DNA of 64,000 nt from a virus (IMGVR_UViG_3300032323_002779:1-64000); one strand, 5' to 3'; counted from the first letter of the stretch, positions 37,003 through 64,000 are shown. Notes: a model not told the origin generated them from the sequence alone. Program-made: numbers and translations.

Positions 37003-37683
37003 ATGAACAAGAAATTATTTTATACCGTAACCACATTGATTGGGATTACTATAATTTATTTTACAGTTAAGAAATTCTTCGGCAAAAAGGCGCAACCTGT
37101 TGGTAGCGTTCTTTTTGTTGGGGATTCTATTACTGCAATCGAACACGATGGAAAACCTGTTACCACTACATATCCAAACATCATAAAAAAAGAGTTAGAA
37201 CCTAAAGGGGTCAAAGTTGATGTTGTGGCGCAGGGCGGTAAAAGAACTGATTGGATATTGGCTAATTTAATTGAAAAATTAAAAACTAACACTTACGACA
37301 GAGTTTATATCTACGGAGGGGTTAACGATATGTTTAGTGCGGTTTCCAAACAAAGAGCATTGCAAAACGTTCAGAAAATGGTTGATTTAATAAAAAGCAA
37401 GGGCGCAGAGCCGTTTGTAATTATTGGATATGATGCAGAAACTTTTATGGACAATGACAAGTTAAAACCAACAAGTTATGTTCCCACTAAAGCAGGAATG
37501 ATAGAATTAAAAAAGAAATATGTTGATTACCAAAATTCGATAGCAGACACTATTAAGGGGGCTACTATTGTTGAAAAGTTCAACATACCAAGCAGTATGA
37601 CCACCGATGCAATACACCCGACACCAAGAGGGCAAAAAATCATCGCAGAAAAACTTTTAGAAAACTTGAGTAAAAGCGTGTAA
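37003..37683 (+). CDS. Membrane-anchored SGNH/GDSL esterase
   Basis: N-terminal TM segment; GDSIT, GGVND and DAIHP catalytic motifs. Confidence 0.9.
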   Translation: MNKKLFYTVTTLIGITIIYFTVKKFFGKKAQPVGSVLFVGDSITAIEHDGKPVTTTYPNIIKKELEPKGVKVDVVAQGGKRTDWILANLIEKLKTNTYDRVYIYGGVNDMFSAVSKQRALQNVQKMVDLIKSKGAEPFVIIGYDAETFMDNDKLKPTSYVPTKAGMIELKKKYVDYQNSIADTIKGATIVEKFNIPSSMTTDAIHPTPRGQKIIAEKLLENLSKSV

Positions 37684-37705
37684 AACAAAAAGAATGTAAT
37701 AATTA

Positions 37706-37734
37706 TTTGCATATCTAATAATTTTTTATATTTG
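37706..37734 (+). promoter_or_regulatory. Bacteroidota-type promoter
   Basis: TTTG-N17-TATATTTG upstream of ATG 37769. Confidence 0.55.
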
Positions 37735-37768
37735 TAAATTAAATTAACTTTATTAAGTTCAAAACACT

Positions 37769-38263
37769 ATGGAAACAATTAATGATTTATTAAGAGCGTT
37801 GGACAACAAAGTACCTGCTTCAATTGCTAAAAGATTAGACGGTTTAAGTAAACTGAATGATAAATTAGTATTAGCAAGACAGGAAAATAGTGAAAATCCA
37901 ACAGAGGAATCGCAAGAGAAATTAGAACAGATTATTGAATTCATCTCGGACACCCAAGAGGATTTAAGAGAAGATTTGGCTGAACTTGTTGCTAAAAAAA
38001 GAGAGGCGGACGCAAAAGCCCGTCAAATTGCTAAAAACAAAGCAGATGCAGAGGCTAAAAAATTAGAGGAAGCAGAAGCCCTTAAAGCAAAGGAAAAAGA
38101 AGAATTAGAGCAGAAAGAATTATTGGAAAAACAAGCACTTGAGGCTACTCCAACAACTGACCCAAAAAAGAAGTCAGGAATTGGTTGGGGAGGTTTAGTT
38201 TTAGGAGGTGCGTTATTAATTCTTTCCGCAGGTGCAATAAACTATTTTGGAAAAAAACGATAA
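37769..38263 (+). CDS. Coiled-coil protein with C-terminal TM anchor
   Basis: E/K/A-rich helix followed by GWGGLVLGGALLILSAGAINYFGKKR. Confidence 0.75.
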   Translation: METINDLLRALDNKVPASIAKRLDGLSKLNDKLVLARQENSENPTEESQEKLEQIIEFISDTQEDLREDLAELVAKKREADAKARQIAKNKADAEAKKLEEAEALKAKEKEELEQKELLEKQALEATPTTDPKKKSGIGWGGLVLGGALLILSAGAINYFGKKR

Positions 38264-38431
38264 ATGACAAAAGCGCAAAAAATTTTATTAGTAGTAGGCA
38301 TTATAGGTGTTGGAATCGGAGGCTTTGTTCTCACGAAATACCTTACTCGTAACGTTAGAAAAATTCGAGGAGGAACTATTACGTTACAAACGTATGATAC
38401 TCCTCCAAGTGAAGAACCTTTAAGCGAATAA
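38264..38431 (+). CDS. Small membrane protein (55 aa, not in track)
   Basis: MTKAQKILLVVGIIGVGIGGFVLTKY...; abuts both neighbours. Confidence 0.7.
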   Translation: MTKAQKILLVVGIIGVGIGGFVLTKYLTRNVRKIRGGTITLQTYDTPPSEEPLSE

Positions 38432-38433
38432 TT

Positions 38434-39144
38434 ATGGGAAAGTACACGAAAATAGAGTTTAAAGTACCTGATGTTAATAGAAGTTTTGCGCAGGGAAGTT
38501 ATAAATATTCAAACCAAAGTGTGATTACGGCAAATACTGCTTTATTAAAAAAAATAGTCAGCACCTATTCACGCCAAATAAACACTTGGGGAGAAGAATT
38601 TGAAATTGATAATTCTATAATTGCGAGTTTTATTGCAACCGAAAGCGGAGGCAAAAACTCTCCTCCAAATAAATTCGATGCAACAGGTCTTATGCAAGTT
38701 ACCCCAAATGCAGTTTGGGAAACTATTGCTAAATGGAGAGTAATGGTAGATTCTCCGTTATCCGAAAAAGCAAAATCTTTTTTCAACAAAGTTATTCCGT
38801 CAAGCAAAAATTATAGTCCAAATAAATTGCCAACTTCTGCTATTAGAAGTGAAATACTTTTGGCATTACAAAAAAATCCTGAATTTAATATCGCAATAGG
38901 TACTGCGCTTTTAAGATGGCTTTTAGAAGCATTTAAAGACGGAAACACTACTCACTTAAATAAAGTAATGGTTTCTTATAACGCAGGTTACTACTCTATG
39001 AGAAATAAAGTCAAAGGCAAATTGACTACGGCAGAATTGCTTAACAACAAGTCAATTCCTTTTGAAAGCAGAGCGTATCTTTTAAAGATGTTAGGTATAA
39101 ATGGATTTTTAGATTTGTGGTTTAAGAGTAATATAAACGTTTAA
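38434..39144 (+). CDS. Lytic transglycosylase (SLT family)
   Basis: IATESGG, ATGLMQV and SYNAG. Confidence 0.9.
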   Translation: MGKYTKIEFKVPDVNRSFAQGSYKYSNQSVITANTALLKKIVSTYSRQINTWGEEFEIDNSIIASFIATESGGKNSPPNKFDATGLMQVTPNAVWETIAKWRVMVDSPLSEKAKSFFNKVIPSSKNYSPNKLPTSAIRSEILLALQKNPEFNIAIGTALLRWLLEAFKDGNTTHLNKVMVSYNAGYYSMRNKVKGKLTTAELLNNKSIPFESRAYLLKMLGINGFLDLWFKSNINV

Positions 39145-39154
39145 AATTAAAAAT

Positions 39155-39286
39155 ATGAAAAAAGAGTATGTTATTGGAGGTTTGGCATTAGTAGGCGTTA
39201 TTGCCTTGTTTGCTTGGTACAGTAAGCCGAAAAAGAACAAAGAGGGGTTTTATAGCGCAAGTGGTTGCGGTTGTGGAGCAAAATAA
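39155..39286 (+). CDS. MKKEY-family membrane peptide (43 aa, not in track)
   Basis: MKKEYVIGGLALVGVIALFAWYSKPKKNKEGFYSASGCGCGAK. Confidence 0.75.
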   Translation: MKKEYVIGGLALVGVIALFAWYSKPKKNKEGFYSASGCGCGAK

Positions 39287-39304
39287 TCATTAAAATCGAA
39301 TAAA

Positions 39305-39436
39305 ATGAAAAAAGAGTATATCATCGGAGGTTTAGCATTAGTTGGCATTATTGCCTTGTTTGCTTTTTATACAAAACCAAAAAAGAACAAAGACGGGTTT
39401 TATAGCGCAAGTGGTTGCGGTTATGGAGCAAAATAA
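39305..39436 (+). CDS. MKKEY-family membrane peptide, tandem duplicate (43 aa)
   Basis: MKKEYIIGGLALVGIIALFAFYTKPKKNKDGFYSASGCGYGAK. Confidence 0.75.
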   Translation: MKKEYIIGGLALVGIIALFAFYTKPKKNKDGFYSASGCGYGAK

Positions 39437-39729
39437 TGGCTTATAAAATTTTACCATATTCAAAAGCACAGGCGAACAAGTTGGGGGTTGAAATAAAACC
39501 CTCAACGAATTCGCTAAAAAAAATTGATGTTTTTAAGAATGGTAAAAAAGTCGCTACAATAGGGGCTTTGGGTATGAATGATTATCCAACCTATTTAGAG
39601 AAAGAAAAAAAAGGATATTTCCCAAAAGGGTATGCCAAAGAAAGACGCAGGTTGTATAAACAACGCCACGAAAAAGACCGTCATAAAAGAGGGACAAATG
39701 GTTGGTATGCAGACAAAATATTGTGGTAA
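39436..39729 (+). CDS. Small basic protein (DUF5754-like)
   Basis: KKIDVF...IGALGMNDYPTY...RRRLYKQRH...WYADKILW; TAATG start at 39436. Confidence 0.65.
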   Translation: MAYKILPYSKAQANKLGVEIKPSTNSLKKIDVFKNGKKVATIGALGMNDYPTYLEKEKKGYFPKGYAKERRRLYKQRHEKDRHKRGTNGWYADKILW

Positions 39730-40371
39730 ATGGCTTTAATATACGAAGATAAAGTACCCGCTTCTTATAGAAGTGGTTTTGTAAAAAAAGTATCTGAAAT
39801 TTCAGATAAGATAGGTATTAACCCTAATTGGTTAATGGCTATTATGTATTTTGAAAGCGCAAGAACGTTTAGTCCGTCAAAAGGCAATGATATTGGTTGT
39901 TACGGTCTTATTCAGTTTTGTCCTGATAGGGGTAAAAATTACAAAACTGTCAACGGTAAGCGATACTTAATGTCGGATATTGCTAAAATGGATTATTCCG
40001 AGCAATTAGACTTGGTTTACGAATATTACAAGCCATATACAGGAAAACTAAAAAGTTACACCGATACATATTTTGTAACATTTTTTCCTTTGGCTATCGG
40101 TAAGCCTGATGATTGGATTATTCAGGGCGGAGGTTTTACCGCAAGACAAATATACAATTCAAACCCTGCTTTTCATCAAGTAAAAGATGGTAAAATTAGG
40201 GTTTGGGAAGTAAAGAAAAAGATATTAGAAAAACTACCAAGCGAATGGGTTAATGAGGGGAGCGTTGGTTTAGCGGTTAAAGCATACAAAAATTATATTG
40301 CAGTTGGTATTTTGTCAATTGTAGCGGGGTTAACATTATTTTATTACACTTATGATAGACGCAGTAAATAA
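39730..40371 (+). CDS. Lysozyme-like/transglycosylase with C-terminal TM anchor
   Basis: WLMAIMYFES, GLIQF and EQLDLVYEY; C-terminal hydrophobic helix. Confidence 0.8.
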   Translation: MALIYEDKVPASYRSGFVKKVSEISDKIGINPNWLMAIMYFESARTFSPSKGNDIGCYGLIQFCPDRGKNYKTVNGKRYLMSDIAKMDYSEQLDLVYEYYKPYTGKLKSYTDTYFVTFFPLAIGKPDDWIIQGGGFTARQIYNSNPAFHQVKDGKIRVWEVKKKILEKLPSEWVNEGSVGLAVKAYKNYIAVGILSIVAGLTLFYYTYDRRSK

Positions 40372-40546
40372 TAGTCAAGGTGCATCTAAAAATGGTCAAA
40401 TTGACGAAAAAATACAAAAGGACGTAAATAAACAAATCCATCAACACTTATCTACAATTTTTGTAGTAGTAGGTATTGTTTCTTTTACATTAGGTGCTAT
40501 CGTAAATTGGTACACAATCAAAAGGATTAAAGCAGGTAAGTCGTAA
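40352..40546 (+). CDS. Small membrane protein
   Basis: Single C-terminal TM helix. Confidence 0.65.
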   Translation: MIDAVNNSQGASKNGQIDEKIQKDVNKQIHQHLSTIFVVVGIVSFTLGAIVNWYTIKRIKAGKS

Positions 40547-40971
40547 TGAAAATATTCGGACAGGTTTTAGATGTAGACGGTTTGCCAATGAGTTTGGCTA
40601 ACATAACTATTACAACAGGGGATAAAGCAGGAAAATTTGGCGATGAAGCCGACTTGGACGGTAACTTTGTGATAGACGATGCTTCTATTACTCCTGATTC
40701 TGAATTTAAAATTTCATACATTGGATATGTCCCTCAATTTTTCAAAGCGAGTGAACTTCAAGGTAAAAAAATAAAACTAAAGGAGGATATATTTGCTCTT
40801 GACGAAGTAATAATTACTTCGGGCGGAGGTAAGCCTAAAGGCAATTATCCTCAAGTAGTCGCCTCTAAAAAGAACAAATTCGTTCAGCACTTACAAGACC
40901 ATAAATTTATTTATGCAGGATTAGGTGGTTTAGCAGGTATATTGCTAATTGTTAGAGCGTTAAAAAAATAA
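40546..40971 (+). CDS. Carboxypeptidase-regulatory-like domain protein with C-terminal TM
   Basis: GQVLDVDGLPMSLANI...ADLDGNF...ISYIGY...LDEVII resembles the SusC N-terminal CarbopepD_reg_2 pattern. Confidence 0.75.
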   Translation: MKIFGQVLDVDGLPMSLANITITTGDKAGKFGDEADLDGNFVIDDASITPDSEFKISYIGYVPQFFKASELQGKKIKLKEDIFALDEVIITSGGGKPKGNYPQVVASKKNKFVQHLQDHKFIYAGLGGLAGILLIVRALKK

Positions 40972-40977
40972 AAATTT

Positions 40978-41322
40978 ATGGAAAAATATAAATTAAAAGA
41001 AGATATAGTTTGGGGTGTTTTACAAAATGGCGAACCAAATATAATTTTCAAAAAAGGAGATGTAATACAAGGCGTAGAAATCGAAAAATTTATTTTTAAT
41101 AAAATTACTAAAGGAGTTGAGTCAAAACCTACTGTTACAAGCGCAAAAGTAGAAACATCAGATGGTTTAGCCTTTGTTCCGTTATCAAGTATTGAAAAAA
41201 TAACTGATACTTCAATCGCAGACGTTCCACCGCAAACATTTTTACAAAAAAATAAAACCAATTTACTAATAATAGGAGTATTGGTTTTAGGATATTTAGC
41301 ATATAAAAAATTTAATAAATAA
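40978..41322 (+). CDS. SH3-like membrane-anchored protein
   Basis: KYKLKED...FKKGDVI...VPLSSIEK plus a C-terminal TM. Confidence 0.6.
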   Translation: MEKYKLKEDIVWGVLQNGEPNIIFKKGDVIQGVEIEKFIFNKITKGVESKPTVTSAKVETSDGLAFVPLSSIEKITDTSIADVPPQTFLQKNKTNLLIIGVLVLGYLAYKKFNK

Positions 41323-41328
41323 AATATT

Positions 41329-41661
41329 ATGGAAGCAGAAGTGGCAGTAGCACCCGTAGCACCCGCACCCGTAGCACCCGCACCCGTAGCACCCGCACCC
41401 GTAGCACCGACATCAGGTGGAGGCGGAGATGACGTGTTTGAAAGTATGGGGTCACAAAAACCAATGGATTTAAAAAGTTTGCTTGTGTTCGGGCTTTTGA
41501 TTGCATTTTCAATATATGGAATTACATATTATAGAAAGGCAATTGCCAAACTGAATGACGACAAAAAGCCAAACGAAGATTTCCTTAATTTGGTAGATGA
41601 CGTAGAGGAAGTGAAATACAATGTTAAAAAAGCATTGGGGAAAAGATACTCAACAACTTAA
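41329..41661 (+). CDS. Membrane protein with N-terminal PVAPA repeats
   Basis: 15-bp tandem repeats at about 41347-41410; central TM helix. Confidence 0.7.
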   Translation: MEAEVAVAPVAPAPVAPAPVAPAPVAPTSGGGGDDVFESMGSQKPMDLKSLLVFGLLIAFSIYGITYYRKAIAKLNDDKKPNEDFLNLVDDVEEVKYNVKKALGKRYSTT

Positions 41662-41670
41662 TAAGTAGTT

Positions 41671-41874
41671 ATGGCAACTGAATCAAATAACGGCAAAGCA
41701 GTTTTGTTAGCAGTCCCTTTGGGATTTGCCATCTACTCTTATTCCAAAGGTTTTAGCATCGGCAAAGGAATATTAGTAACTGTTTTGGGAAGTTTAGCAG
41801 TAGGCGTTGCGTTAGGTGTAACAACTGTTGTTTACGGCACTTATAAAATTGCCAATAAAGATTATACAAAATAA
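41671..41874 (+). CDS. Small membrane protein
   Basis: Two hydrophobic segments. Confidence 0.65.
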   Translation: MATESNNGKAVLLAVPLGFAIYSYSKGFSIGKGILVTVLGSLAVGVALGVTTVVYGTYKIANKDYTK

Positions 41875-41898
41875 ACCAAGAAATAACAACAAAGGACT

Positions 41899-42460: not shown

Positions 42461-42462
42461 TT

Positions 42463-43069: not shown

Positions 43070-43714
43070 ATGGAGTTTAATGATTTGACATACGGAAATC
43101 CTACTCACGACCAATTACAGTTCGTCAAAGAGGCTTGTTTGGTCGATAATCTATTTGAAACTTTTAAGGATTCGGTTATACCTAAAAATGATTCGGAATT
43201 AGTTAAAGAAGAACTTAACGAAATTGCTGACTGTTTAGCGGTTATTTCTCAACCTGAAAACCAAAATTACCTCAAAAGATATTTGGCTTACGACAGGAAT
43301 TTAATTCAAGCGTTGTCAAGTATTTTTAAGCAAAAAGATATTGAGGTTGAGGAACTAATCACGGAGGTTGTAAAGGATATTCAGAATTTGATTTACAAAT
43401 TAAAGTTTCACTTTCAAAGACCAAGACCTTTTCAATTGGCGCAGTATTACAAACTCAAACTTTTTCCTTATAAAAGTTTCTCTGCTCATACACCGTCATA
43501 CCCGTCAGGGCATACGATTCAAGCAATTGTAATACTTAATGTCATCGGAAATAAATATCCAACAGAATACCAATATTGCAAAGAATTAATAGAAGATATT
43601 ATTTATAGCAGGGTGTATTTAGGGCATCATTTCCCAAGCGATAATGACGGCGGAAGAGAAATAGGCAAGGCGATATTAAAAGACCCTGAATTTACCAAGA
43701 AATACGGAATTTAA
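43070..43714 (+). CDS. PAP2/haloperoxidase-superfamily phosphatase
   Basis: KFHFQRPRP, PSYPSGH and SRVYLGHHFPSD. Confidence 0.9.
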   Translation: MEFNDLTYGNPTHDQLQFVKEACLVDNLFETFKDSVIPKNDSELVKEELNEIADCLAVISQPENQNYLKRYLAYDRNLIQALSSIFKQKDIEVEELITEVVKDIQNLIYKLKFHFQRPRPFQLAQYYKLKLFPYKSFSAHTPSYPSGHTIQAIVILNVIGNKYPTEYQYCKELIEDIIYSRVYLGHHFPSDNDGGREIGKAILKDPEFTKKYGI

Positions 43715-43737: not shown

Positions 43738-44124
43738 ATGAAACACGAGGAATATGAATTACAAAAATCGGTAGCCCGTTATTTATCTTACCAATATCCT
43801 GACGTTGATTTTTTATCAGATACAATCGCATCTATAAAACTAACGGAAAGACAGGCGGGGAGAAATAAACTCATTCAAAAGAACGGGTTTAAATGTCCTG
43901 ATGTTTTAATTCTTGAACCACGAAAAAACTACTGTGGCTTATTTATAGAACTTAAAACAGAAAGCCCTTTTAAAAAAGACGGCACAATTAAGGCTTCTCA
44001 AAAAGACCACTTAAAATTACAACACGAATCTTTGCAAAGACTATCTTCAAAAGGTTATTGCGCAGAATTTTCGTGGAGTTTTGATATGACCAAAAAAATT
44101 ATTGACGAATACTTAACAGATTAG
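43738..44124 (+). CDS. VRR-NUC-like PD-(D/E)xK nuclease
   Basis: EYELQ...CPDVLI...GLFIELK...Q. Confidence 0.8.
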   Translation: MKHEEYELQKSVARYLSYQYPDVDFLSDTIASIKLTERQAGRNKLIQKNGFKCPDVLILEPRKNYCGLFIELKTESPFKKDGTIKASQKDHLKLQHESLQRLSSKGYCAEFSWSFDMTKKIIDEYLTD

Positions 44125-44126
44125 AT

Positions 44127-44570
44127 ATGAAACAGGAAACTGACAACGTGTCTATGGTCTTTAAGGAATTAGATAAGACGATACAGATTATTGGTGCTGA
44201 AAAACTAATTGAAATTTTGAAGTACTCAAGAAAAAATCCCCCAACACTAAATCAAGAGCAAATTGAAAAAGCGTTGAAATTAGTTCAGGTGGTGTGTGAT
44301 GAATTTAAAATTTCTTTGGACGACATTTTCGATATGAAGCGAAAAAACAACCGAAGAATTTCAATAGGCATTTGCGCCTTTGTAATACAGAAACAATTGA
44401 ATCTTGACAACTCCAACATATCCTATATTTTGAAGAAATCAGATACTTTAGTATCTTTGTATAAGCAAGAAATTTTACGTTTAAATTCAAACCACCCGTC
44501 AGATAGACAAATATTAGAAAAAATTGACAACATTAATGCTAACATAGATAAATTATTTAAAAATGGTTAA
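44127..44570 (+). CDS. DnaA-domain-IV-like HTH protein
   Basis: VCDEFKISLDDIF...R...ICAFVIQKQLNL...ISYILKK pattern. Confidence 0.5.
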   Translation: MKQETDNVSMVFKELDKTIQIIGAEKLIEILKYSRKNPPTLNQEQIEKALKLVQVVCDEFKISLDDIFDMKRKNNRRISIGICAFVIQKQLNLDNSNISYILKKSDTLVSLYKQEILRLNSNHPSDRQILEKIDNINANIDKLFKNG

Positions 44571-45657
44571 CCAAGAAAACTTTGAAACAATTGAGGACGC
44601 ACAAATTATTAATGATGATTTTTCTCCTTTAGACGCACCTGTAAAACAAAGGTCGTACACACAACACAAAATGGACGATGCTCAATATATGGGCGAATTA
44701 GAAGAGCCGTCTTTTGAAAGACCGAGTTTTGCCGACCTTGATGGTAGTGCTGAAGAAGAAGCCTCTGAACCCGAAAGACCATTCAACCCGTCTTACAACG
44801 AGTTAGACGGTAAAGAGAAAACTATGGGGGCAGAAATGATGGCTGAAATGACTTTAGACATCTACGAGAAAGGTTGCTTCTATTTAGGTAAAATCCCTGA
44901 AATAAGTGAGGGTAAAATCGATAAGTTAATTGCGGAGGGGGAAATAGACCCGTCAATCCAACTTCAAACTGAAGCAGGAGCAATGCCAATCAAAGAATTT
45001 GCAGTAGAATTTAACGACAGTATAAAAGAAGCGTTTCTTGTAAGTGATGAATTTAAAGAAAAGGTAAAACCGCCTTTAATTCGTGTGTTCAAAAAGCGTG
45101 GTATCGGAATGACTGACGAACAGTTGTTGGCATACTACTTTGTTACGGATTTAGGCGCAAAGGGCGCACAAGCATTTATGTTGCGTAAAACAACAAATAG
45201 CATTATAGATTCTTTAAGAGAGAACACTATGGCTATGAGAGAAAACCAAATGAATAGCGAAAGACCTCAACCACAGGGTCAGCCTCAACAACAATATCAG
45301 GAAAGACCTCCTGTTTATTCAGAACCGTCAACAGATGACGTTTCCTACACAGATAATATAGCGGAAGTTGTAGAAGAACCTGTAAGCAGAACTCGAAGAA
45401 GACCACAAAGAAGTGAACCTAAAACTAATTTAGACGAACAGTTGGCTTATTTTGAACCTGAAGAACAAGGCGTTTATAGCAACCTTAAAGATAATGGAGG
45501 CTTTACAGATGACTTTACAGACGTAGCAGGTATGCCAAAGTTCGGCGACCCTACAATTCTTTCGGAATTAGAAAGATTAAGTGGCAACGAGCCGACCAAG
45601 CCTGTGAGAAAGAGAAGAACTACCGCAGTAAAAAAACCAAGAGGAGGTAAAAAATAA
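44563..45657 (+). CDS. Acidic, partly disordered protein upstream of the packaging ATPase
   Basis: 364 aa, D/E/P-rich, with a basic tail. Confidence 0.7.
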   Translation: MVNQENFETIEDAQIINDDFSPLDAPVKQRSYTQHKMDDAQYMGELEEPSFERPSFADLDGSAEEEASEPERPFNPSYNELDGKEKTMGAEMMAEMTLDIYEKGCFYLGKIPEISEGKIDKLIAEGEIDPSIQLQTEAGAMPIKEFAVEFNDSIKEAFLVSDEFKEKVKPPLIRVFKKRGIGMTDEQLLAYYFVTDLGAKGAQAFMLRKTTNSIIDSLRENTMAMRENQMNSERPQPQGQPQQQYQERPPVYSEPSTDDVSYTDNIAEVVEEPVSRTRRRPQRSEPKTNLDEQLAYFEPEEQGVYSNLKDNGGFTDDFTDVAGMPKFGDPTILSELERLSGNEPTKPVRKRRTTAVKKPRGGKK

Positions 45658-45659: not shown

Positions 45660-45776
45660 ATGGCTACCAATTTGACGAATAATAAAAACAACAATAACAA
45701 CTCTTTGTGGGTTGTTTTGTTGGTATTCGTGATTTGGTTTATTGTATTTATTTTTAAACTAAAACAACAAATGTAA
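45660..45776 (+). CDS. 38-aa membrane peptide (not in track)
   Basis: MATNLTNNKNNNNNSLWVVLLVFVIWFIVFIFKLKQQM; fills the gap before the ATPase. Confidence 0.55.
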   Translation: MATNLTNNKNNNNNSLWVVLLVFVIWFIVFIFKLKQQM

Positions 45777-45777: not shown

Positions 45778-46593
45778 ATGGAGATTAGAGAACCAAAATT
45801 AGGAGTTGCGGTAGGTAGGAAAGGTTGCGGAAAGACCTACACTACTACTAAAATGATTAAACAATACGTTTTAGGAAATCCCTCAAGAGGTGTTCCTGCA
45901 AGACGTGCATTAATTCTTGATGTTAATGATGAATTTGAAGACATTAAAGCATTAAAACAATCGGACATAGTTAGATTTTCGGCGCACCCTAAAATTGAAG
46001 CGAGAAGAATTAGACCGTTTCACGACAACGGTGTTAGAATGACTTTAAGAGAAATACAAGAAGTACTATTTAAAATATTAAACGATTACAGGGGTGGATT
46101 ATTACTTATCGAAGACATTAACCGCTACGTTAGTGACTACTTACCGAATGACCTTGTTGGTGCAATCTGTACTAACAGACACACGGACACAGACATTATT
46201 CTTCACTTTCAGTCCATAGGGCGTATTTCGCCTAAAATTTGGCAGAATTTGAATTGGATTAGATTTCATAAAATCACAGATGATGTAATCAAGCACAGGA
46301 ATAAGTTTGAGGAAAAATTAGAGTTACTGCTATTGGTTGAGGCATACATCAACACACAATACGAAGAGGGCGATAAAAGGGTTTTTACCTACGTTGATAT
46401 TGATGACGAAAAGGTTTTGGTAAAAGACAAGGCGAGGTTTCAAAAAATAATTGAAAACTACCTTATTGCCAATCAAAAGAAATTATTAGTACCTTTAACG
46501 GTTAAAAATCCGCTTATCTCTGCGAAGCCTATGACGCTTGAGGGTGCTTTAAAACACAAAACACAATTGCTTATGAAGCAATATGTCGGATAA
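45778..46593 (+). CDS. Stand-alone FtsK-HerA/A32-like P-loop ATPase, probable genome-packaging ATPase
   Basis: GRKGCGKT near the N-terminus, LLLIED Walker B, TNRH arginine finger and ILHFQ; 271 aa with no nuclease domain. Confidence 0.75.
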   Translation: MEIREPKLGVAVGRKGCGKTYTTTKMIKQYVLGNPSRGVPARRALILDVNDEFEDIKALKQSDIVRFSAHPKIEARRIRPFHDNGVRMTLREIQEVLFKILNDYRGGLLLIEDINRYVSDYLPNDLVGAICTNRHTDTDIILHFQSIGRISPKIWQNLNWIRFHKITDDVIKHRNKFEEKLELLLLVEAYINTQYEEGDKRVFTYVDIDDEKVLVKDKARFQKIIENYLIANQKKLLVPLTVKNPLISAKPMTLEGALKHKTQLLMKQYVG

Positions 46594-47366: not shown

Positions 47367-47831
47367 ATGAAATTATCAGAGCATTTATCATTGTCAGAAG
47401 TTACTCGAAGCGATATGGCAAAAAGAAAGGGCATTAGCAATATGCCGACACCTGAACACATTGAGAACTTTAAAAAATTGGCAGAAAATATTTTTGAGCC
47501 AATTCGTAAACATTTTGGAGTTCCAATATTTGTATCGTCAGGGTACAGAAGCAAGGCACTCAATACTGCTATCGGCGGAAGTTTGTCAAGCCAACATTGT
47601 CAGGGCGAAGCAATTGACATCGATATGGACGGTAGCGCAAATGGAGTTACAAACAAAATGGTTTTTGATTACATCAAAGCCCATTTAAACTTTGACCAAT
47701 TAATTTGGGAGTTTGGAACTAAAGACAATCCTGATTGGGTACACGTTTCTTACGAATCCACAGGAAAGCAACGTAAACAAGTTTTAAGAGCAATAAAAAG
47801 CGGAGGAAAAACTACTTATCAGCCTTATTAG
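47367..47831 (+). CDS. Endolysin, peptidase M15 family
   Basis: SSGYRS, SQHCQGEAIDID and WVHVSY Zn-binding motifs. Confidence 0.9.
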   Translation: MKLSEHLSLSEVTRSDMAKRKGISNMPTPEHIENFKKLAENIFEPIRKHFGVPIFVSSGYRSKALNTAIGGSLSSQHCQGEAIDIDMDGSANGVTNKMVFDYIKAHLNFDQLIWEFGTKDNPDWVHVSYESTGKQRKQVLRAIKSGGKTTYQPY

Positions 47832-48560: not shown

Positions 48561-48567
48561 AAACGAA

Positions 48568-48594
48568 GCGCACCAATACGGTGCGTTTTTTTTT
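48568..48594 (+). terminator. Intrinsic terminator after the lysis cassette
   Basis: CGCACC-AATAC-GGTGCG followed by T9. Confidence 0.85.
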
Positions 48595-48684: not shown

Positions 48685-48748
48685 GCTTGATATTATTTCT
48701 GTAAATAATTATCATTAAAAATAAGTTTAATCGAAAAATCATTCTGTA

Positions 48749-48877
48749 ATGAAAAACGAAATTGTTCCTTTACTAAAAAGTGTTGCCGTAGTTGTTGTAG
48801 GTGTGTTAATTGCGAATTATGTTCAGACAACATTGTTAGCAAAGAAAGTTGACGCTCCTGCTGATGCAAAAATGTAA
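48749..48877 (+). CDS. 42-aa membrane peptide (not in track)
   Basis: MKNEIVPLLKSVAVVVVGVLIANYVQTTLLAKKVDAPADAKM. Confidence 0.7.
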   Translation: MKNEIVPLLKSVAVVVVGVLIANYVQTTLLAKKVDAPADAKM

Positions 48878-49634: not shown

Positions 49635-49676
49635 TTATCAGCAATGATATAACGAATTAATGTATAATTTAGAAAG

Positions 49677-49710
49677 AGAGCAAGTGATTCATTTCTACTT
49701 GCTCTTTTTT
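49677..49710 (+). terminator. Intrinsic terminator after the candidate capsid gene
   Basis: AGAGCAAGT...ACTTGCTCT followed by a T-run. Confidence 0.8.
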
Positions 49711-50157: not shown

Positions 50158-50162
50158 AAAAA

Positions 50163-54371: not shown

Positions 54372-55157
54372 ATGAATTTAAGGTTAGATACACGATACGA
54401 AGAAATGTGCTTGGTGGTAAAAGTAGCAGTTACAATGCCTACTAAAGTCAGAATTAGAATTTTTGACGAGCAAAAGCCGAAAATCGTTTTTACCGACAGA
54501 TATAAAACCGTTACTTCTGACTACACTTTTTATGTTCGTATGCCAATTACTTCCAAAAGCATTATAGTTTCTGTTTACGATGATAAAAAAGGGAATACGC
54601 CTCAAGAACAAGAAAAAAACGTAAGGGTGGTTTCGGTTGACAAAACTCCTTTACAAAAAAGAATTGACGTAGTTGATATTCACAATCCGACCATAGCGTA
54701 TTTCGTTGATTTTGCGCAAAGATTTTGTTTTAATGCACCTTATCTACAAGCAAACAAGTCTTATCAGTCAGATAACGGAAATTTTATGATTGAGTACTTG
54801 CCAACGATAGTGGATTCAAGAGGAAAGGAACTTACAACACCTGCGAGAATATCAAGAATTTCAGGTCGTATTCAAGTTTCAAAGAAACAGTTTGACGAAT
54901 ACACAGTACCAATGAGATTTGCCATTCTTTGTCACGAGTTCGCTCATTTCTACGTTAACGAAGATATGACCGATGAAAGTGAGGCTGACATAAATGGATT
55001 GTTGATTTATTTAGGGCTTGGTTATCCAAGAATCGAAGCGTTTGAAGCGTTTTTAGAAGTTTTTGAGCATTACCCAAGTCAAGAGAACAAAAGACGTTAC
55101 GATAAGATTAAAAATTTTATCGACAACTTTGAAAAAAACAATATTGTATTTAGATAA
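54372..55157 (+). CDS. Zincin-like metallopeptidase
   Basis: HEFAH with downstream ESEAD. Confidence 0.7.
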   Translation: MNLRLDTRYEEMCLVVKVAVTMPTKVRIRIFDEQKPKIVFTDRYKTVTSDYTFYVRMPITSKSIIVSVYDDKKGNTPQEQEKNVRVVSVDKTPLQKRIDVVDIHNPTIAYFVDFAQRFCFNAPYLQANKSYQSDNGNFMIEYLPTIVDSRGKELTTPARISRISGRIQVSKKQFDEYTVPMRFAILCHEFAHFYVNEDMTDESEADINGLLIYLGLGYPRIEAFEAFLEVFEHYPSQENKRRYDKIKNFIDNFEKNNIVFR

Positions 55158-56808: not shown

Positions 56809-57531
56809 ATGGCTAATAAACCTATTAATGTAAATAAAGCGATGACCGTTGTTTACTTCAATAATCTAATTCTTGGAGAATTAAGAAAAAACGGGATTGA
56901 AAGTTGGATTGCGGGTGGTGTTTTAAGGGATTACTTCTTGGATAAGCCCTTAAAATCTGATTGCGATATTTTCTTTCCTAACATTGAAGAGTTCAACAAA
57001 GCAAAAGCATATTTAACGTCAAAAGGAGCAAAAATAATTTGGGAAAGTGAAAACGGAATGAAAGTTACCTACAAGGGCAATACTTTTGATTTAGTTAAAA
57101 TCTTTGCGCCAAATCCTTTGGCTACTATTGGTCGTTTTGATTTTACGATTTCAATGTTGGCTACTGACGGAAAACAAGTTTTTTACGGAAATAATACCCT
57201 AAAAGACTTACAAGATAGAAAATTGGTAATCAATACTATTGTGAATCCATTAAGCACTCTTAAAAGAGTATTGAAGCACTATAAGAAAGGGTTCACTATG
57301 TCTGCGGAGGAAACCAAAAAACTATATGAGGCTTTAAATAGTATGCCTTATAACGATACTGACGATATGCTCAATGCAAGAGGGGTTTCAGGGGATAATT
57401 TTAGACCAACGGTTGTGGCAACGCAACCTGCGCCTGTGGCTAAACCTGATTATTTGAAGTACGCTATGATTGGCGTACTTGCGCTTTTGGTTGGGTATGT
57501 TGCTTATAAAAAATTTAATAAACCACAGTAA
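56809..57531 (+). CDS. CCA-adding/poly(A)-polymerase-type nucleotidyltransferase head with C-terminal TM anchor
   Basis: IAGGVLRD, SDCDIF, RFDFTI, DLQDRKL and LKRVLKHYKKGF, followed by a hydrophobic helix. Confidence 0.8.
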   Translation: MANKPINVNKAMTVVYFNNLILGELRKNGIESWIAGGVLRDYFLDKPLKSDCDIFFPNIEEFNKAKAYLTSKGAKIIWESENGMKVTYKGNTFDLVKIFAPNPLATIGRFDFTISMLATDGKQVFYGNNTLKDLQDRKLVINTIVNPLSTLKRVLKHYKKGFTMSAEETKKLYEALNSMPYNDTDDMLNARGVSGDNFRPTVVATQPAPVAKPDYLKYAMIGVLALLVGYVAYKKFNKPQ

Positions 57532-61917: not shown

Positions 61918-61918
61918 T

Positions 61919-62365: not shown

Positions 62366-62370
62366 AAGTT

Positions 62371-62535
62371 ATGAAAAATAAAAAATTGATAATAATAGGT
62401 GCTACGTCTGTAATAGTTTTGGGAATACTTTACTTTGCTTTCAAAAAAGCAAACCAAAAAGACATTACAAATGACCCTCAACTTAAAGCAGATTTTGATT
62501 CTGTAATCAAAGCAATTGATAACGCTGAAAAATAA
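62371..62535 (+). CDS. 54-aa membrane peptide (not in track)
   Basis: MKNKKLIIIGATSVIVLGILYFAFKK... Confidence 0.68.
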   Translation: MKNKKLIIIGATSVIVLGILYFAFKKANQKDITNDPQLKADFDSVIKAIDNAEK

Positions 62536-62541
62536 AAAAAA

Positions 62542-63096
62542 ATGAACGGAGATAAAAAATTATACTTGTATTCAGGATTGGCTATCGCTTTAGCGGTAGT
62601 TGCTTATGTTGTTATCACAAAGAAAAAGCCTTTGCCTACTACTTCCGCTGAAGAAGCCTCAACCGAAGAACAAGATGACGTGGTTGTTACTCCAAGTGGA
62701 GATACTATTACGACTGAACAGGCTATTATAGACCCTGCTTTAAGCGAAATTTTAAAGTTGCCTCTTGCCGAAATAAAGTTGAAAATGTTGAATAAGAAAC
62801 TTTATACAAAAGTTGACAACGTTAACCCAAGACAAACTCCTTATGTGAATAATGGTTGGTTTGTAAATAACGGTGTTGGTGGTAAAATAACTAAAAAAGG
62901 CACTTTTGCGGGTACGGTAACAGATGTTGCAAAAGACAAAGGCTCAATGAGTAATGCTCAAGGCAGAGTTTATATTTGGTTTAAAGTTAAACCGTCTGCT
63001 GAAGCCGTAAAGCAAATAAAAGACGATGCAAACATACTTGTCCCAACAAAAACTGATACTTTTTGGTTGAGAGAAGATGTTGTAGTAAAAAAATAA
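62542..63096 (+). CDS. N-anchored membrane protein, possible SH3b-like C-terminal domain
   Basis: TM; VNPRQTP...WFKV...WLREDVV. Confidence 0.65.
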   Translation: MNGDKKLYLYSGLAIALAVVAYVVITKKKPLPTTSAEEASTEEQDDVVVTPSGDTITTEQAIIDPALSEILKLPLAEIKLKMLNKKLYTKVDNVNPRQTPYVNNGWFVNNGVGGKITKKGTFAGTVTDVAKDKGSMSNAQGRVYIWFKVKPSAEAVKQIKDDANILVPTKTDTFWLREDVVVKK

Positions 63097-63103
63097 AATT
63101 ATT

Positions 63104-63535
63104 ATGAGAACAAATGATATGCGAACCACTATGTTGGTAGCGGATTATGACAATCAAATAATGCCTGTTGATGAAAACTCAACATACACAGGGGGTGGTT
63201 CAAATATTGTTGAGCCTGAAATTGTAATTCCTGTAAACAATGAAATTGCAACTCCGATTGGCGCAGGTTCGGCAAGTGCTGAACAAGTAGAAATATTAAC
63301 TCAACAAGCAGGAAATACTTCTCAATCAGGTACAAGTACGGTTGTAGAGCCTAATATAGATGCAGAGCCAAGCGCAACTACTGACGAAACAAAAACATAC
63401 GTTGGCGGAGGGACTACTCCTGATTCAAATATCATAATAGACAAACCAAAACGTAATTATCTTATGTATGGTCTTATTGGTGTTGTTGGGGCGTATGTTA
63501 TTTACAAAGTGTTTTTCAATAAAAAAAGCCAATAA
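63104..63535 (+). CDS. S/T-rich C-anchored membrane protein
   Basis: Disordered linker plus TM. Confidence 0.68.
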   Translation: MRTNDMRTTMLVADYDNQIMPVDENSTYTGGGSNIVEPEIVIPVNNEIATPIGAGSASAEQVEILTQQAGNTSQSGTSTVVEPNIDAEPSATTDETKTYVGGGTTPDSNIIIDKPKRNYLMYGLIGVVGAYVIYKVFFNKKSQ

Positions 63536-63546
63536 AATAAAAGATT

Positions 63547-63681
63547 ATGAGTCAGAATAAAGAGGGTTTGCAAGGCACTCAAAACAAACAGGTTTCTTTT
63601 TTAGAGAGCCACCCAAAACTTATAATGACGGTTTTTATTGCAGTTGGTCTTTACATAGGGTATAAAAAATTTATGAAGTAA
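63547..63681 (+). CDS. 44-aa membrane peptide (not in track)
   Basis: MSQNKEG...LIMTVFIAVGLYIGYKKFMK. Confidence 0.62.
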   Translation: MSQNKEGLQGTQNKQVSFLESHPKLIMTVFIAVGLYIGYKKFMK

Positions 63682-63682
63682 T

Positions 63683-64000
63683 ATGGTTATAAATCCAAAC
63701 ACATCTTTTCAAAACACATCTTTTCAAAAAGAAAGCAAATTCATTTTGAAAGTAGTTGCGGTTGCAAGTGTTATTACTGCTTTGGCGGGAGGATATTACT
63801 TTTTTGTAAACAACGTTTGGAAACCAAAGGTTAAGGTTTTAAGTGTTGATTTTACGAATGGTTTCGCAACAGTAGAAATGCCCTTTGGAAGAAAAGTAGA
63901 TATTTATGGAGATTCACAGTTTTTGATTGGGGGAGATTGGGGTGTGAAATTCGGTACTGTGAATAGAGGAGGTAAAACATCATACGAAAATCTACAACTT
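63683..64000 (+). CDS. Partial N-anchored membrane protein
   Basis: MVINPNTSF...VVAVASVITALAGGYYFF...; open to the window edge. Confidence 0.65.
   Translation, partial: MVINPNTSFQNTSFQKESKFILKVVAVASVITALAGGYYFFVNNVWKPKVKVLSVDFTNGFATVEMPFGRKVDIYGDSQFLIGGDWGVKFGTVNRGGKTSYENLQL

What the first reader, a model, noticed from the sequence alone, without database searches (positions are those of the whole stretch)
37003..64000. Morphogenesis module of an unusually large tailless, membrane-containing Bacteroidota phage
Seen: about 50 small proteins with terminal TM helices flanked by Lys. There is a stand-alone 271-aa ATPase with Walker A, Walker B, an RH finger and hhhhQ motifs, a tiny TM gene directly upstream of it, and a beta-rich 233-aa capsid candidate with its own terminator. 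There are two muralytic enzymes apart from the endolysin. No terminase, portal, HK97 capsid or tail genes are recognisable in 64 kb. Known: this layout matches PRD1-type and sphaerolipovirus-type viruses (P9/A32 ATPase, small membrane packaging proteins, P7 transglycosylase), whose prokaryotic members usually have genomes of about 10-35 kb. Inference: a lineage of jelly-roll phages with a genome of at least 64 kb and a greatly expanded membrane proteome.
Basis: partly seen in the sequence, partly recalled or inferred. Interest (0 to 1): 0.85.

Follow-up and report, generated by a model that had tools for sequence, protein, structure and literature searches.

The report
Large jelly-roll, membrane-rich Bacteroidota phage candidate
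This stretch looks like the particle-building module of an uncultured 100-130 kb virus of freshwater Bacteroidota. It has none of the usual tailed-phage genes. Instead it pairs a packaging ATPase like those of membrane-containing phages with a conserved jelly-roll protein and dozens of small membrane proteins, though a jelly-roll capsid is still unproven.

Summary
In 37003-64000, 44 of 64 ORFs carry one terminal TM helix, usually Lys/Arg-flanked.

The 271-aa ATPase has the stated motifs. It aligns with the Thermus sphaerolipovirus packaging ATPases (hhalign 89-93%; controls ≤6%). Its only PHROG hit is the family that holds the PRD1, PM2, SH1 and P23-77 packaging ATPases.

The 233-aa protein models as a single jelly roll. 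It has its own terminator and is the most conserved core gene.

No TerL, portal or HK97 capsid was found in the 73-kb contig or in five collinear relatives of 79-132 kb. An unrelated prophage in the same MAG did score for Terminase_3, portal and HK97 capsid.

The genome is 100-132 kb, not merely at least 64 kb. Earlier scan notes concerned this genome only.

The parts
37003..64000 (+). Block dominated by small single-pass membrane proteins (44 of 64 ORFs)
   Evidence: Hydropathy scan against controls. Many are conserved in related loci.
37003..37683 (+). GDSL/SGNH lipase-acylhydrolase with N-terminal TM helix
   Evidence: Pfam Lipase_GDSL_2 E 3.6e-13. The TM helix is read from the sequence.
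38434..39144 (+). Lytic transglycosylase (SLT)
   Evidence: Pfam SLT E 1.1e-13, above the cut-off. PHROG endolysin/transglycosylase hits.
39415..39729 (+). Highly conserved basic 104-aa core protein of unknown role
   Evidence: Found in 34 of 38 loci at 61% identity or more. Core in all 5 genomes. Faint DUF5754 hit.
39730..40371 (+). SLT-like protein with C-terminal TM anchor (possible virion-membrane transglycosylase)
   Evidence: Pfam SLT E 0.0034, below the cut-off. C-terminal TM helix.
40352..41661 (+). Core small TM proteins (64, 141 and 110 aa). The 141-aa protein has a CarboxypepD_reg-like beta domain plus a tail anchor.
43070..43714 (+). PAP2-superfamily phosphatase, core gene
   Evidence: Pfam PAP2 E 1.5e-13. 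Found in 36 of 38 loci.
43738..44570 (+). Two small conserved soluble proteins (faint VRR-NUC hit and faint DnaA-C HTH hit)
   Evidence: both below the cut-offs. Found in 29 and 34 of 38 loci.
44563..45657 (+). Acidic 364-aa protein with low-complexity stretches and a basic tail, directly upstream of the ATPase. Possible scaffold or packaging accessory (inferred).
   Evidence: Found in 37 of 38 loci. Consensus sequence. No Pfam or PHROG hit.
45660..45776 (+). 38-aa TM protein directly upstream of the ATPase
   Evidence: A positional equivalent exists in 19 of 38 loci.
45778..46593 (+). FtsK/HerA-superfamily ATPase, candidate genome-packaging ATPase
   Evidence: Motifs. DUF87 in 20 of 28 members. 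phrog_2666 E 2.7e-5, which is the packaging-ATPase family of PRD1, PM2, SH1 and P23-77. hhalign 89.5% to P23-77, 88.8% to IN93 and 93.4% to a Helvetiavirae mini-profile, with controls at 6% or less.
47367..47831 (+). Peptidase M15 (endolysin-type)
   Evidence: Pfam Peptidase_M15_3 E 5.7e-20.
48565..48589 (+). Intrinsic terminator closing the upstream unit
   Evidence: Stem of 10 pairs followed by a T-run.
48687..48715 (+). Best sigma-70-like promoter match in 45-51 kb. Weak evidence, because the host's promoter type differs.
   Evidence: 10 of 12 positions match.
48749..48877 (+). 42-aa TM ORF co-transcribed with the jelly-roll gene
   Evidence: found in 15 of 38 loci.
48933..49634 (+). Single jelly-roll protein, most conserved core gene, candidate major capsid protein
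   Evidence: AF2 core residues 53-200 at pLDDT 70-90. Jelly-roll matches. 75-90% identity across 5 genomes. 811 cluster representatives.
49672..49710 (+). Terminator hairpin plus T-run after the jelly-roll gene
   Evidence: z -4.9.
49729..50882 (+). Two core tail-anchored proteins (142 and 239 aa) following the jelly-roll gene
   Evidence: No PHROG hit.
54372..55157 (+). Core 261-aa protein with an N-terminal beta domain and an HEFAH motif. Possible zincin protease (inferred).
   Evidence: 60-89% identity in 5 genomes. Faint SprT-like hit E 0.043. Motif read.
56809..57531 (+). Nucleotidyltransferase with C-terminal TM anchor
   Evidence: phrog_1614 E 8.5e-11. The TM tail is read from the sequence.

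Best explanation
The region is the late (particle-building and lysis) module of an uncultured lineage of large dsDNA viruses of freshwater Chitinophagaceae-type Bacteroidota. Full genomes are about 100-132 kb.

The lineage does not use the tailed-phage head-tail machinery. A small FtsK/HerA-type ATPase, related to the packaging ATPase of Thermus sphaerolipoviruses, pumps the genome into a preformed shell. That shell is built mainly from the conserved 233-aa single jelly-roll protein. Smaller paralogs of this protein probably sit at the vertices, next to variable spike proteins.

The shell would enclose or be lined by a lipid membrane holding dozens of virus-encoded single-pass proteins. TM-anchored and soluble transglycosylases would open the wall at entry, and an M15 peptidase would lyse the cell at exit. 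The upstream giant polyvalent proteins would be packaged cargo.

Shown: the gene content, conservation, ATPase affinity, jelly-roll fold, transcription unit, and the lack of detectable tailed-phage hallmarks. Inferred: capsid role, membrane, tailless particle, packaging direction, and cargo delivery.
For: (1) ATPase. Only the two Thermus sphaerolipovirus ATPases align through Walker A, Walker B and the R/Q region: 89.5% and 88.8% over about 140 columns, and 93.4% (E 2.5e-7) against a 3-sequence profile. PRD1 P9 scored 5.8%, a Zot-like protein 6.0%, and the window's MoxR and Zeta proteins 2.6% and 1.9%. The single PHROG hit is the family that holds the SH1, PRD1, PM2 and P23-77 packaging ATPases and is not found in lambda. 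DUF87/HerA is hit in 20 of 28 members.

(3) A second small paralog (147-180 aa) is present in all five full-length genomes. It lies beside three TM genes and a large variable repeat or propeller protein, which resembles a vertex module.

(4) No Terminase_6N, TerL_ATPase, Terminase_3, Terminase_6C, Phage_portal, SPP1_portal or Phage_capsid in G001, G002, G003, G005 or G006:C9. Terminase_3, Phage_portal and Phage_capsid did score on another contig (C29) of G006. About 80 individual proteins scanned in Pfam or PHROGs gave no head, portal or tail family apart from weak tail-labelled hits to two enzymes, the GDSL lipase and the SLT.

(5) TM-gene density is twice that of PRD1, PM2 and Bam35 and six times that of lambda. 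Lipid-acting enzymes are present: a TM-anchored GDSL lipase and a core PAP2 phosphatase.

(6) Weak hint: in one freshwater RNA library, contigs tile 48709-49961, the jelly-roll unit. Contigs cannot rank expression.

Against: The naturally fused two-domain paralog, modelled well (pLDDT 78.5, pTM 0.71), does not superpose on DJR capsid proteins as a whole. Only one domain aligns, and Foldseek prefers tandem CBM32, neuropilin and bicupins at TM 0.19 or less.

The family profile has no similarity to 12 of 12 tested SJR or DJR capsid or penton proteins (0.6% or less), while its own paralog scores 97.3%.

G003 carries three extra paralogs inside its sugar/glycosyltransferase cluster. That would also fit a carbohydrate-binding role.

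The ATPase match to PRD1 P9, PM2, Bam35 and SH1 is weak or limited to the P-loop. phrog_2666 is broad, ringing in all 14 control cellular genomes.

The tiny TM gene upstream of the ATPase is present in only 19 of 38 loci. SSIP-1, the largest cultured phage of this type I examined, shows no detectable relationship.

No record has terminal repeats, so completeness rests on CheckV estimates and on similar contig lengths.
Confidence: 0.5

Rival explanations
1. It is a tailed phage (Caudoviricetes) whose capsid, portal and terminase have diverged beyond profile detection. The small ATPase serves another DNA-handling role. The jelly-roll proteins are decoration, cement, fibre-head or glycan-binding proteins. 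The TM proteins act on the host membrane (exclusion, lysis, secretion).
For: Jelly-roll domains are common in tail fibres, cement proteins and CBMs, and such chains appear in the match lists: KHP40 cement, Pa223 and Kp7 tail chains, 7-7-1 fibres. The viral library's top hits are fibre or collagen/C1q-like proteins. Extra paralogs lie in a glycosyltransferase cluster. Giant polyvalent proteins are typical of phages and conjugative elements (Pfam ART-PolyVal, DUF5661, DUF2958). The DUF7192 partner of MoxR sits in clusters labelled Uroviricota. Large fibre-like repeat proteins are present.
Against: No core gene has the size and composition expected of a portal, TerL or HK97 MCP. Seven hallmark Pfam families are undetected in five genomes, while three of them (Terminase_3, Phage_portal, Phage_capsid) score on a prophage in the same MAG. 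No PHROG head, portal or tail hits except weak ones to enzymes. TerL is normally the easiest phage gene to detect. Receptor-binding or decoration proteins are rarely the most conserved gene.
Confidence: 0.2
2. It is a virus or virus-like element with a non-icosahedral, lipid-based particle (pleomorphic or enveloped, or a plasmid spread in specialised vesicles). The many TM proteins form the envelope. The ATPase moves DNA across a membrane. The jelly-roll protein is a surface spike, a matrix protein or a pilus-like subunit.
For: TM-gene density is exceptional. Three lipid-related enzymes are present (plus an LRAT-like motif read). FtsK/HerA and Zot-like ATPases also serve non-capsid systems: Zot is hit in 3 of 28 members, and the P23-77 ATPase itself hits inovirus proteins. 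Ena pilin jelly rolls are among the top matches.
Against: From recall, no capsid-less particle is known to carry 100-130 kb. The ATPase aligns best with icosahedral sphaerolipovirus packaging ATPases and only at 6% with a Zot-like protein. A conserved, separately transcribed jelly-roll gene plus a small paralog next to spike-like genes fits shell plus vertex better.
Confidence: 0.15
3. It is a conjugative or mobilisable plasmid or ICE rather than a virus. The TM proteins, transglycosylases and ATPase would form a DNA-transfer apparatus.
For: Polyvalent proteins, a Zeta toxin, DUF932, SLT transglycosylases and many small TM proteins all occur in conjugative elements.
Against: No VirB4/TraG-sized ATPase, relaxase or coupling protein appeared among any scanned ORF of 300 aa or more. 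The element is present in only 2 of 301 sampled genomes of the putative host family. Relatives are IMG/VR virus records with similar lengths and strict collinearity. An M15 lysin and a RecT/exonuclease module are phage-like.
Confidence: 0.04

Closest known systems
Thermus phages P23-77 and IN93 (Matshushitaviridae, Helvetiavirae; sphaerolipovirus type)
   Same: The packaging ATPase is the closest detectable relative (hhalign 89.5% and 88.8%, about 140 columns). Their capsids are built from single jelly-roll MCPs and they have an internal membrane (review passages). In P23-77 the annotated ATPase gene lies upstream of the capsid genes, with small genes between them, as here. Endolysin and transglycosylase genes are also annotated in P23-77.
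   Different: Genome of 17-20 kb against 100-132 kb here. Their two MCP genes are adjacent, whereas here the 233-aa gene and the roughly 150-aa paralog are about 28 kb apart. No sequence similarity between the jelly-roll proteins (0.6% or less). They have no giant polyvalent proteins and no glycosylation cluster. Under the same scan P23-77 shows 2 TM ORFs against 54 here.
PRD1 / Tectiviridae and PM2 / Corticoviridae (double jelly-roll, internal membrane)
   Different: No double jelly-roll MCP was found. The direct ATPase match to P9 is limited to the P-loop (5.8%). No protein-primed polymerase or terminal protein was detected. The genome is about 7-13 times larger.
[quoted passage not shown]
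   Same: It is a membrane-containing icosahedral phage of a bacterium then classed in Bacteroidetes, and it has two MCP types (review passages). Its genome is unusually large for the type at 43.8 kb, and it encodes a giant 2319-aa structural protein.
   Different: No detectable homology: the best ATPase-profile match is 9.1% (P-loop only), the jelly-roll profile reaches 1% or less, and there is one marginal blastp hit.
Polyvalent-protein-carrying phages and conjugative elements
   Same: The upstream giants carry ART-PolyVal, DUF5661 and DUF2958 domains, and there is a Zeta-toxin module.
   Different: No MuF-type portal-attachment domain and no head-tail genes were detected in the proteins scanned.

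Membership tests
Helvetiavirae (sphaerolipovirus-type viruses) | FtsK/HerA-type packaging ATPase homologous to P23-77 ORF13 and SH1 ORF17 | tested here: met
   hhalign 89.5% to P23-77, 88.8% to IN93, and 93.4% to a 3-sequence profile. SH1 alone scored only 37% over 37 columns. Controls were 6% or less. Same PHROG family.
Helvetiavirae (sphaerolipovirus-type viruses) | Two vertical single jelly-roll major capsid proteins | tested here: inconclusive
Helvetiavirae (sphaerolipovirus-type viruses) | Internal lipid membrane under an icosahedral shell | not testable with these tools
   Only indirect evidence: 44 of 64 ORFs have a TM helix, and GDSL lipase and PAP2 enzymes are present.
Bamfordvirae prokaryotic members (Tectiviridae, Corticoviridae, Autolykiviridae; PRD1 type) | [quoted passage not shown] | tested here: inconclusive
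Bamfordvirae prokaryotic members (Tectiviridae, Corticoviridae, Autolykiviridae; PRD1 type) | A32/P9-clade packaging ATPase | tested here: inconclusive
   Same PHROG as P9. Direct hhalign to PRD1 P9 gave 5.8%, PM2 P9 35% and Bam35 37%, all over short stretches.
Tectiviridae | Linear genome with inverted terminal repeats, terminal protein and protein-primed family B polymerase | tested here: inconclusive
   There is no ITR at the ends of the (truncated) contig. No polymerase hit appeared among the ORFs scanned. Not every ORF was scanned, and the true genome ends are unknown.
Caudoviricetes (tailed phages) | HK97-fold major capsid protein, portal and large terminase | tested here: not met
   PF03237, PF03354, PF04466, PF17289, PF04860, PF05133 and PF05065 gave no match in G001, G002, G003, G005 or G006:C9. 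PF04466, PF04860 and PF05065 matched G006:C29. Individual scans gave no such hit. Extreme divergence cannot be excluded.
Conjugative elements (T4SS-based) | VirB4/TraG-type ATPase, relaxase and coupling protein | tested here: not met
   None appeared among the scanned ORFs of 300 aa or more of the contig and of the extra regions of G002 and G006:C9. These families were not searched by name.

The most novel reading that the evidence does not exclude
A widespread, uncultured freshwater lineage of 100-130 kb Bacteroidota viruses builds a large tailless icosahedral shell from a single jelly-roll protein family. That family has diversified into a major form, a small vertex form and natural tandem fusions, which would be a living view of the single-to-double jelly-roll transition. 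The shell surrounds a membrane holding about 50 virus-encoded proteins, and the particle delivers giant polyvalent effector proteins without any tail. This would extend prokaryotic jelly-roll viruses roughly 3-fold beyond the largest cultured example I examined (SSIP-1, 43.8 kb) and about 7-fold or more beyond the 7-18 kb range of the 2018 census.
Probability: 0.3. Interest if true: 0.95.

Novelty: new variant of a known kind. Interest (0 to 1): 0.8.

Why it matters
Known tailless, membrane-containing phages are small. The 2018 metagenomic census of prokaryotic DJR viruses reports roughly 7-18 kb (passages read). SH1 is 30.9 kb and SSIP-1 is 43.8 kb. Large genomes among jelly-roll viruses are known only from eukaryotic giant viruses.

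A bacterial lineage of 100-132 kb with this hallmark pair would show that genome gigantism in this type of virus also arose in bacteria. It would bring with it a greatly expanded membrane proteome, its own glycosylation genes (with APS-kinase and sulfotransferase genes in relatives) and giant injected effectors.

The lineage is not rare. The ATPase has 828 relatives at E 0.001 or better, and the jelly-roll profile finds 811 cluster representatives. Automated pipelines probably file these contigs as unclassified or as tailed phages.

Whatever the particle turns out to be, none of the core structural candidates scanned against PHROGs matches a PHROG of known structural function, and most match none. 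Its architecture is therefore an open and directly testable question.

Tried and rejected
Nucleotide and protein searches against 50,697 GenBank phage records found nothing. Megablast of 1-24900 and of 37003-61900 gave no match. tblastn of the ATPase and of the 364-aa protein gave no match at E 1e-3.

phmmer and profile searches of the ATPase against PDB sequences gave only P-loop matches to ClpB. The 529-aa MoxR partner gave no PDB sequence match. In the ESM atlas it gave only DUF7192-type clusters. The atlas result for the 233-aa protein was at noise level, 0.80.

I first suspected that the 364-aa protein upstream of the ATPase was a DJR capsid protein. Its acidic, low-complexity consensus argued against that, and I did not fold it.

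I hoped the tandem-fused paralog would fold as a canonical double jelly roll. It did not. It also proved to be an extra paralog in G003, not a replacement for the single gene.

SSIP-1 was tested as the closest relative and rejected.

The PF09018 (PRD1 P3) genome scan is uninformative, because nothing rang in any control.

The 248-aa and 320-aa core pair in the minus-strand block was inspected by eye as a possible protease plus HK97 capsid. It looked unlike either and was not pursued. This is an impression, not a test.

RNA evidence: one metatranscriptome held about 5% of the sampled words. Most of the 9.9-kb stretch had no cover in its contigs.

The family-wide search of 301 genomes of G006's family found the ATPase only in G006 and, distantly, in G178. 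This means it was not found in those searched, not that it is absent.

Complex prediction was not used. A homo-oligomer pass would not separate a capsomer from a fibre head.

Literature searches returned no paper describing a jelly-roll or membrane-containing phage of this size or a Sediminibacterium phage of this kind. I saw only listings and abstract starts, plus passages of PMC5894146 and PMC6356626. I did not ask for supplementary files. The additional files of PMC5894146 list its contigs and could contain larger ones.

Full report
WHERE THE WINDOW LIES. The window is bases 1-64000 of a single 73,240-bp virus record. The record has no terminal repeat, and an ORF runs off its 3' end, so it is truncated. 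All long ORFs are on the + strand and GC is an even 0.33-0.37.

Upstream of the flagged region lie three blocks:
- A sugar-modification cluster: RgpF-like, DegT, PglD-like, a methyltransferase and glycosyltransferases, with an HNH endonuclease.
- A Zeta-toxin-domain protein, ART-PolyVal proteins and three giants of 1897, 2781 and 1417 aa carrying polyvalent-protein domains (DUF5661, ART-PolyVal, DUF2958).
- A MoxR-type AAA+ protein with a 529-aa DUF7192-type partner.

THE OBSERVATION. It is real.
- Under one hydropathy pipeline, 44 of 64 ORFs in 37003-64000 have a TM helix. Of these, 24 are single N-terminal and 17 tail-anchored. 43 of the 44 are at most 250 aa, and 40 of the 44 are flanked by at least 2 K/R. 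The first 37 kb has 1 of 29.
- The density is 16.3 per 10 kb. That is about twice that of PRD1, PM2 and Bam35 (6.7-8.0) and six times that of lambda (2.5) under the same pipeline.
- The 233-aa gene is beta-rich. It is bracketed by a strong upstream terminator and a downstream hairpin plus T-run.
- Pfam confirms an SLT transglycosylase, an M15 peptidase, a GDSL lipase with a TM helix and a PAP2 phosphatase. The second transglycosylase (39730) is only sub-threshold.

RELATIVES AND TRUE SIZE. The ATPase has 828 relatives at E 0.001 or better among 2302 candidates. The 120 listed are almost all 268-280 aa, with a few shorter fragments. IMG/VR holds 38 related loci on contigs of up to 102 kb.

Three relatives of 100.3, 101.2 and 102.2 kb, and two of 76.7 and 79.4 kb, are rated 100% complete by CheckV, but all are 'linear' with no end repeats.

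A 132,486-bp contig of a Sediminibacterium MAG is collinear with our contig at 80-88% nucleotide identity. Our 3.7-69.5 kb corresponds to its 25.2-83.6 kb. Its GC is uniform with no host-like flanks, so it is probably all viral. The genome is therefore about 100-132 kb, and our contig lacks roughly 25 kb at one end and up to about 49 kb at the other.

In the relatives the missing parts encode the following (some readings by eye):
- multiple DNA methyltransferases, RNase T, RecT, a PD-(D/E)XK nuclease and DUF932
- a DnaD-like replication protein (read by eye)
- a sulfotransferase with an APS-kinase-like protein (the latter read by eye) and further glycosyltransferases
- large variable repeat or propeller proteins

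IS IT A TAILED PHAGE? I found no evidence that it is.
- Every ORF of 300 aa or more in the contig was scanned in Pfam and/or PHROGs without a terminase, portal, capsid or tail family. The only tail-labelled hits were weak ones to two enzymes, the GDSL lipase and the SLT.
- Six-frame scans of four IMG/VR relatives and the MAG gave no match in the relatives or on contig C9. The families were Terminase_6N (IMG/VR relatives only, G001-G005), TerL_ATPase, Terminase_3, Terminase_6C, Phage_portal, SPP1_portal and Phage_capsid.
- Terminase_3, Phage_portal and Phage_capsid all matched a different contig (C29) of the same MAG. That is an ordinary prophage and serves as an in-sample positive control.
- The core gene set shared by five genomes contains no protein with the size and character of a portal, TerL or HK97 capsid.
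- Extreme divergence cannot be excluded, and I could not fold all the candidates.

THE ATPASE. Pfam gives only weak hits for the window's protein. Across 28 members, DUF87 (HerA central domain) is hit in 20, AAA_22 in 27 and Zot in 3.

The sole PHROG hit (phrog_2666, E 2.7e-5, profile positions 325-525 of 555) is labelled 'terminase large subunit'. I searched that PHROG in reference genomes. It matches the packaging ATPases of SH1 (1.6e-78), PRD1 P9 (1.2e-67), PM2 P9 (2.9e-53) and P23-77 (2.9e-40) over the same profile region, and nothing in lambda. It also rings in all 14 cellular controls, so it is a broad FtsK/HerA-type family.

Profile-sequence comparison is more specific:
- P23-77: 89.5% (E 2e-6, 142 columns spanning Walker A to the R/Q region)
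- IN93: 88.8%
- A three-sequence Helvetiavirae alignment: 93.4% (E 2.5e-7)
- SH1 37%, PM2 35% and Bam35 37%, all over short stretches
- PRD1 P9 5.8% and an inovirus Zot-like protein 6.0%
- The window's own MoxR and Zeta P-loop proteins: 2.6% and 1.9%

I therefore read it as a stand-alone FtsK/HerA-superfamily ATPase whose nearest characterised relatives are the sphaerolipovirus-type packaging ATPases.

A 38-aa TM gene directly upstream is present at the same position in 19 of 38 loci. The suggested analogy to PRD1's small membrane packaging proteins therefore holds for only part of the family.

THE JELLY-ROLL PROTEIN. With a 22-sequence alignment, AlphaFold2 gives a confident beta core (residues about 53-200, pLDDT 70-90) and disordered termini (overall pLDDT 64, pTM 0.61).
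- Foldseek against PDB has no hit at E 0.001 or better. Its best rows (E 1.4e-3 and weaker) are picornavirus VP2/VP3 and STMV coat proteins, plus C1q-type domains, at TM about 0.25.
- The viral predicted-structure library returns mostly fibre, collagen or C1q-like proteins.

The arguments for a major structural role are contextual:
- It is the most conserved core gene (75-90% identity across five genomes).
- It has its own terminator-bounded unit.
- It lies 2.3 kb downstream of the ATPase.
- Its family is large: 811 cluster representatives at E 0.001 or better and 426 at 1e-10 or better.

In one freshwater RNA library, contigs tile 48709-49961. That is only a weak hint.

PARALOGS. Every full-length genome has a second, smaller paralog of 147-180 aa (hhalign 97.3% to the family profile). 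It is preceded by three small TM genes and followed by a protein of about 155 aa. In G006:C9 that protein shows an NCEHF motif and a C-terminal TM helix, which is LRAT/PLAAT-like by recall and untested. After it comes a large variable DUF285 or NHL-propeller protein. This resembles a vertex module of penton plus spike, like PRD1's adjacent P2, P31 and P5 genes.

Some family members are natural tandem fusions. P0128 is 397 aa with domains at 43-204 and 233-391. About 41 clusters of 381-410 aa exist.

The fusion is also an extra gene in G003. That genome has five family members, three of them inside its sugar/glycosyltransferase cluster. Multiple capsid paralogs are usual in large jelly-roll viruses (recalled), but this placement equally suits a glycan-binding role.

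The family profile has no similarity to P23-77 VP16/VP17, IN93 ORF13/14, SH1 VP4/VP7, PRD1 P3/P31/P5, PM2 P1/P2 or the Bam35 MCP: 12 of 12 score 0.6% or less.

HOST. Ten loci in the GTDB species genomes encode a relative of the ATPase. The two closest (98% and 92% identity) are in a Sediminibacterium MAG and an 'uncultured Bacteroidetes' MAG, and a distant one (35%) is in a Chitinophaga MAG. The seven others (53-64%) are binned with a Bathyarchaeia archaeon, a Gammaproteobacteria bacterium, Opitutia, Chlamydiae, Ignavibacteria, Planktophila and an unclassified bacterium. I take this to be binning noise, or real host diversity among the more distant relatives.

Only 2 of 301 sampled genomes of G006's family hold the ATPase, so it is not a common prophage. 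On the DNA itself, only 5 of 102 gene starts have an SD-like core and the leaders are 57% A. Five of the six intergenic + strand TAnnTTTG motifs lie 27-72 nt upstream of a start. These features fit Bacteroidota, although the motif is recalled and the numbers are small.

MECHANISM PROPOSED, AND HOW SURE. At about 0.5, this is the late module of a tailless virus. In this model an internal or lining membrane, loaded with dozens of virus-encoded single-pass proteins, is enclosed by a shell of the 233-aa jelly-roll protein. The small paralog and the variable spikes would sit at the vertices.

The sphaerolipovirus-like ATPase would fill the shell with DNA. SLT enzymes (one of them membrane-anchored) would breach the wall at entry, and the M15 peptidase would lyse the cell at exit. 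The GDSL, PAP2 and LRAT-like enzymes would act on lipid. The 261-aa HExxH protein might be a maturation protease. The giant polyvalent proteins would be packaged cargo.

Only the gene-level facts are shown. Every particle-level statement is inference.

Rivals are a highly divergent tailed phage (0.2), a non-icosahedral lipid particle or vesicle-borne element (0.15) and a conjugative element (0.04).

COMPARISON WITH WHAT IS KNOWN. The census of prokaryotic DJR viruses reports genomes of roughly 7-18 kb (PMC5894146, passages only). SH1 is 30.9 kb and SSIP-1 is 43.8 kb. SSIP-1 also has a 2319-aa structural protein but shows no detectable homology to this lineage.

Four literature searches found no description of a comparable lineage. 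I file this as a new variant of a known kind: it works like a sphaerolipovirus or PRD1-type virus on present evidence, but membership of either kingdom is not established (see the membership table).

EARLIER SCAN NOTES. All of them are on this same genome. They describe GG-delimited polyproteins, a shared C-terminal tag, a five-gene leader family, a membrane-tethered nucleotidyltransferase and the glycosylation cluster. My Pfam and PHROG results and my sequence reading agree with the last three. I did not test the polyprotein-processing ideas.

Noticed in passing
window 39155-39286, 39305-39436, 51808-52230, 52258-52518, 52537-52782: Five paralogous small proteins share a near-identical N-terminal signal-anchor (MKKEYIIGGLAL...KPK[KR]N..GF) followed by variable Cys-rich tails. 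They look like a diversifying family of secreted or membrane-displayed peptides.
   Followed up: no
window 61453-61917 and 61880-62365: Two adjacent proteins of 154 and 161 aa end in nearly the same tail anchor (NLKRT..IVGGIIGVAYVYKAFKK), which suggests a recent tandem duplication within the TM block.
   Followed up: no
G006:C9:36825-37304 (minus strand; c9r 95183-95662): The 159-aa protein next to the small jelly-roll paralog has an NCEHF motif and a C-terminal TM helix. That recalls LRAT/PLAAT phospholipid-acting NlpC/P60 enzymes (recalled motif, no family search hit).
   Followed up: partly
G003 6650-7174, 14648-15112, 17225-18418: Three extra jelly-roll family genes, including a 397-aa tandem fusion, lie inside or beside the glycosyltransferase cluster of this 102-kb relative. 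The window's contig has none at the equivalent place (8.6-9.5 kb).
   Followed up: partly
G002 (L040) 1943-7910: Five N6_N4 DNA methyltransferase genes and one MT-A70 gene lie in a row at the start of the 101-kb relative, and another is in the minus-strand block. That is an unusually heavy anti-restriction load.
   Followed up: no
G002 80516-82703 and G006:C9 (c9r 89328-93032): A sulfotransferase, an APS-kinase-like protein (read by eye) and a GT9-like protein are core genes downstream of the fibre-like giants. This suggests virus-encoded sulfated glycans.
   Followed up: no
G006:C29:8925-14409: An ordinary prophage (Terminase_3, Phage_portal and HK97-type Phage_capsid) sits on another contig of the same Sediminibacterium MAG. 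I used it as a positive control.
   Followed up: partly
L092 (SSIP-1) 26863-33822: The membrane-containing Salisaeta phage SSIP-1 encodes a 2319-aa annotated structural protein. This parallels the giants here, so giant virion proteins are not confined to tailed phages.
   Followed up: partly
window 65097-66203 in contig coordinates (L001 2097-3203); G002 50489-51604: A 368-aa tandem PAS-domain protein is 86% identical between relatives. In G002 it sits right after the M15 peptidase, in our contig about 17 kb further on, so it appears to be a relocated sensory gene.
   Followed up: no
G005 40053-51371: In the 79-kb relative the fibre-like repeat proteins are replaced by a single ORF of 3772 aa.
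   Followed up: no
window 47148-47478: In the RNA-library contigs the deepest bin (word depth 47) lies in the M15 peptidase gene. It may come from another organism's homologue.
   Followed up: no
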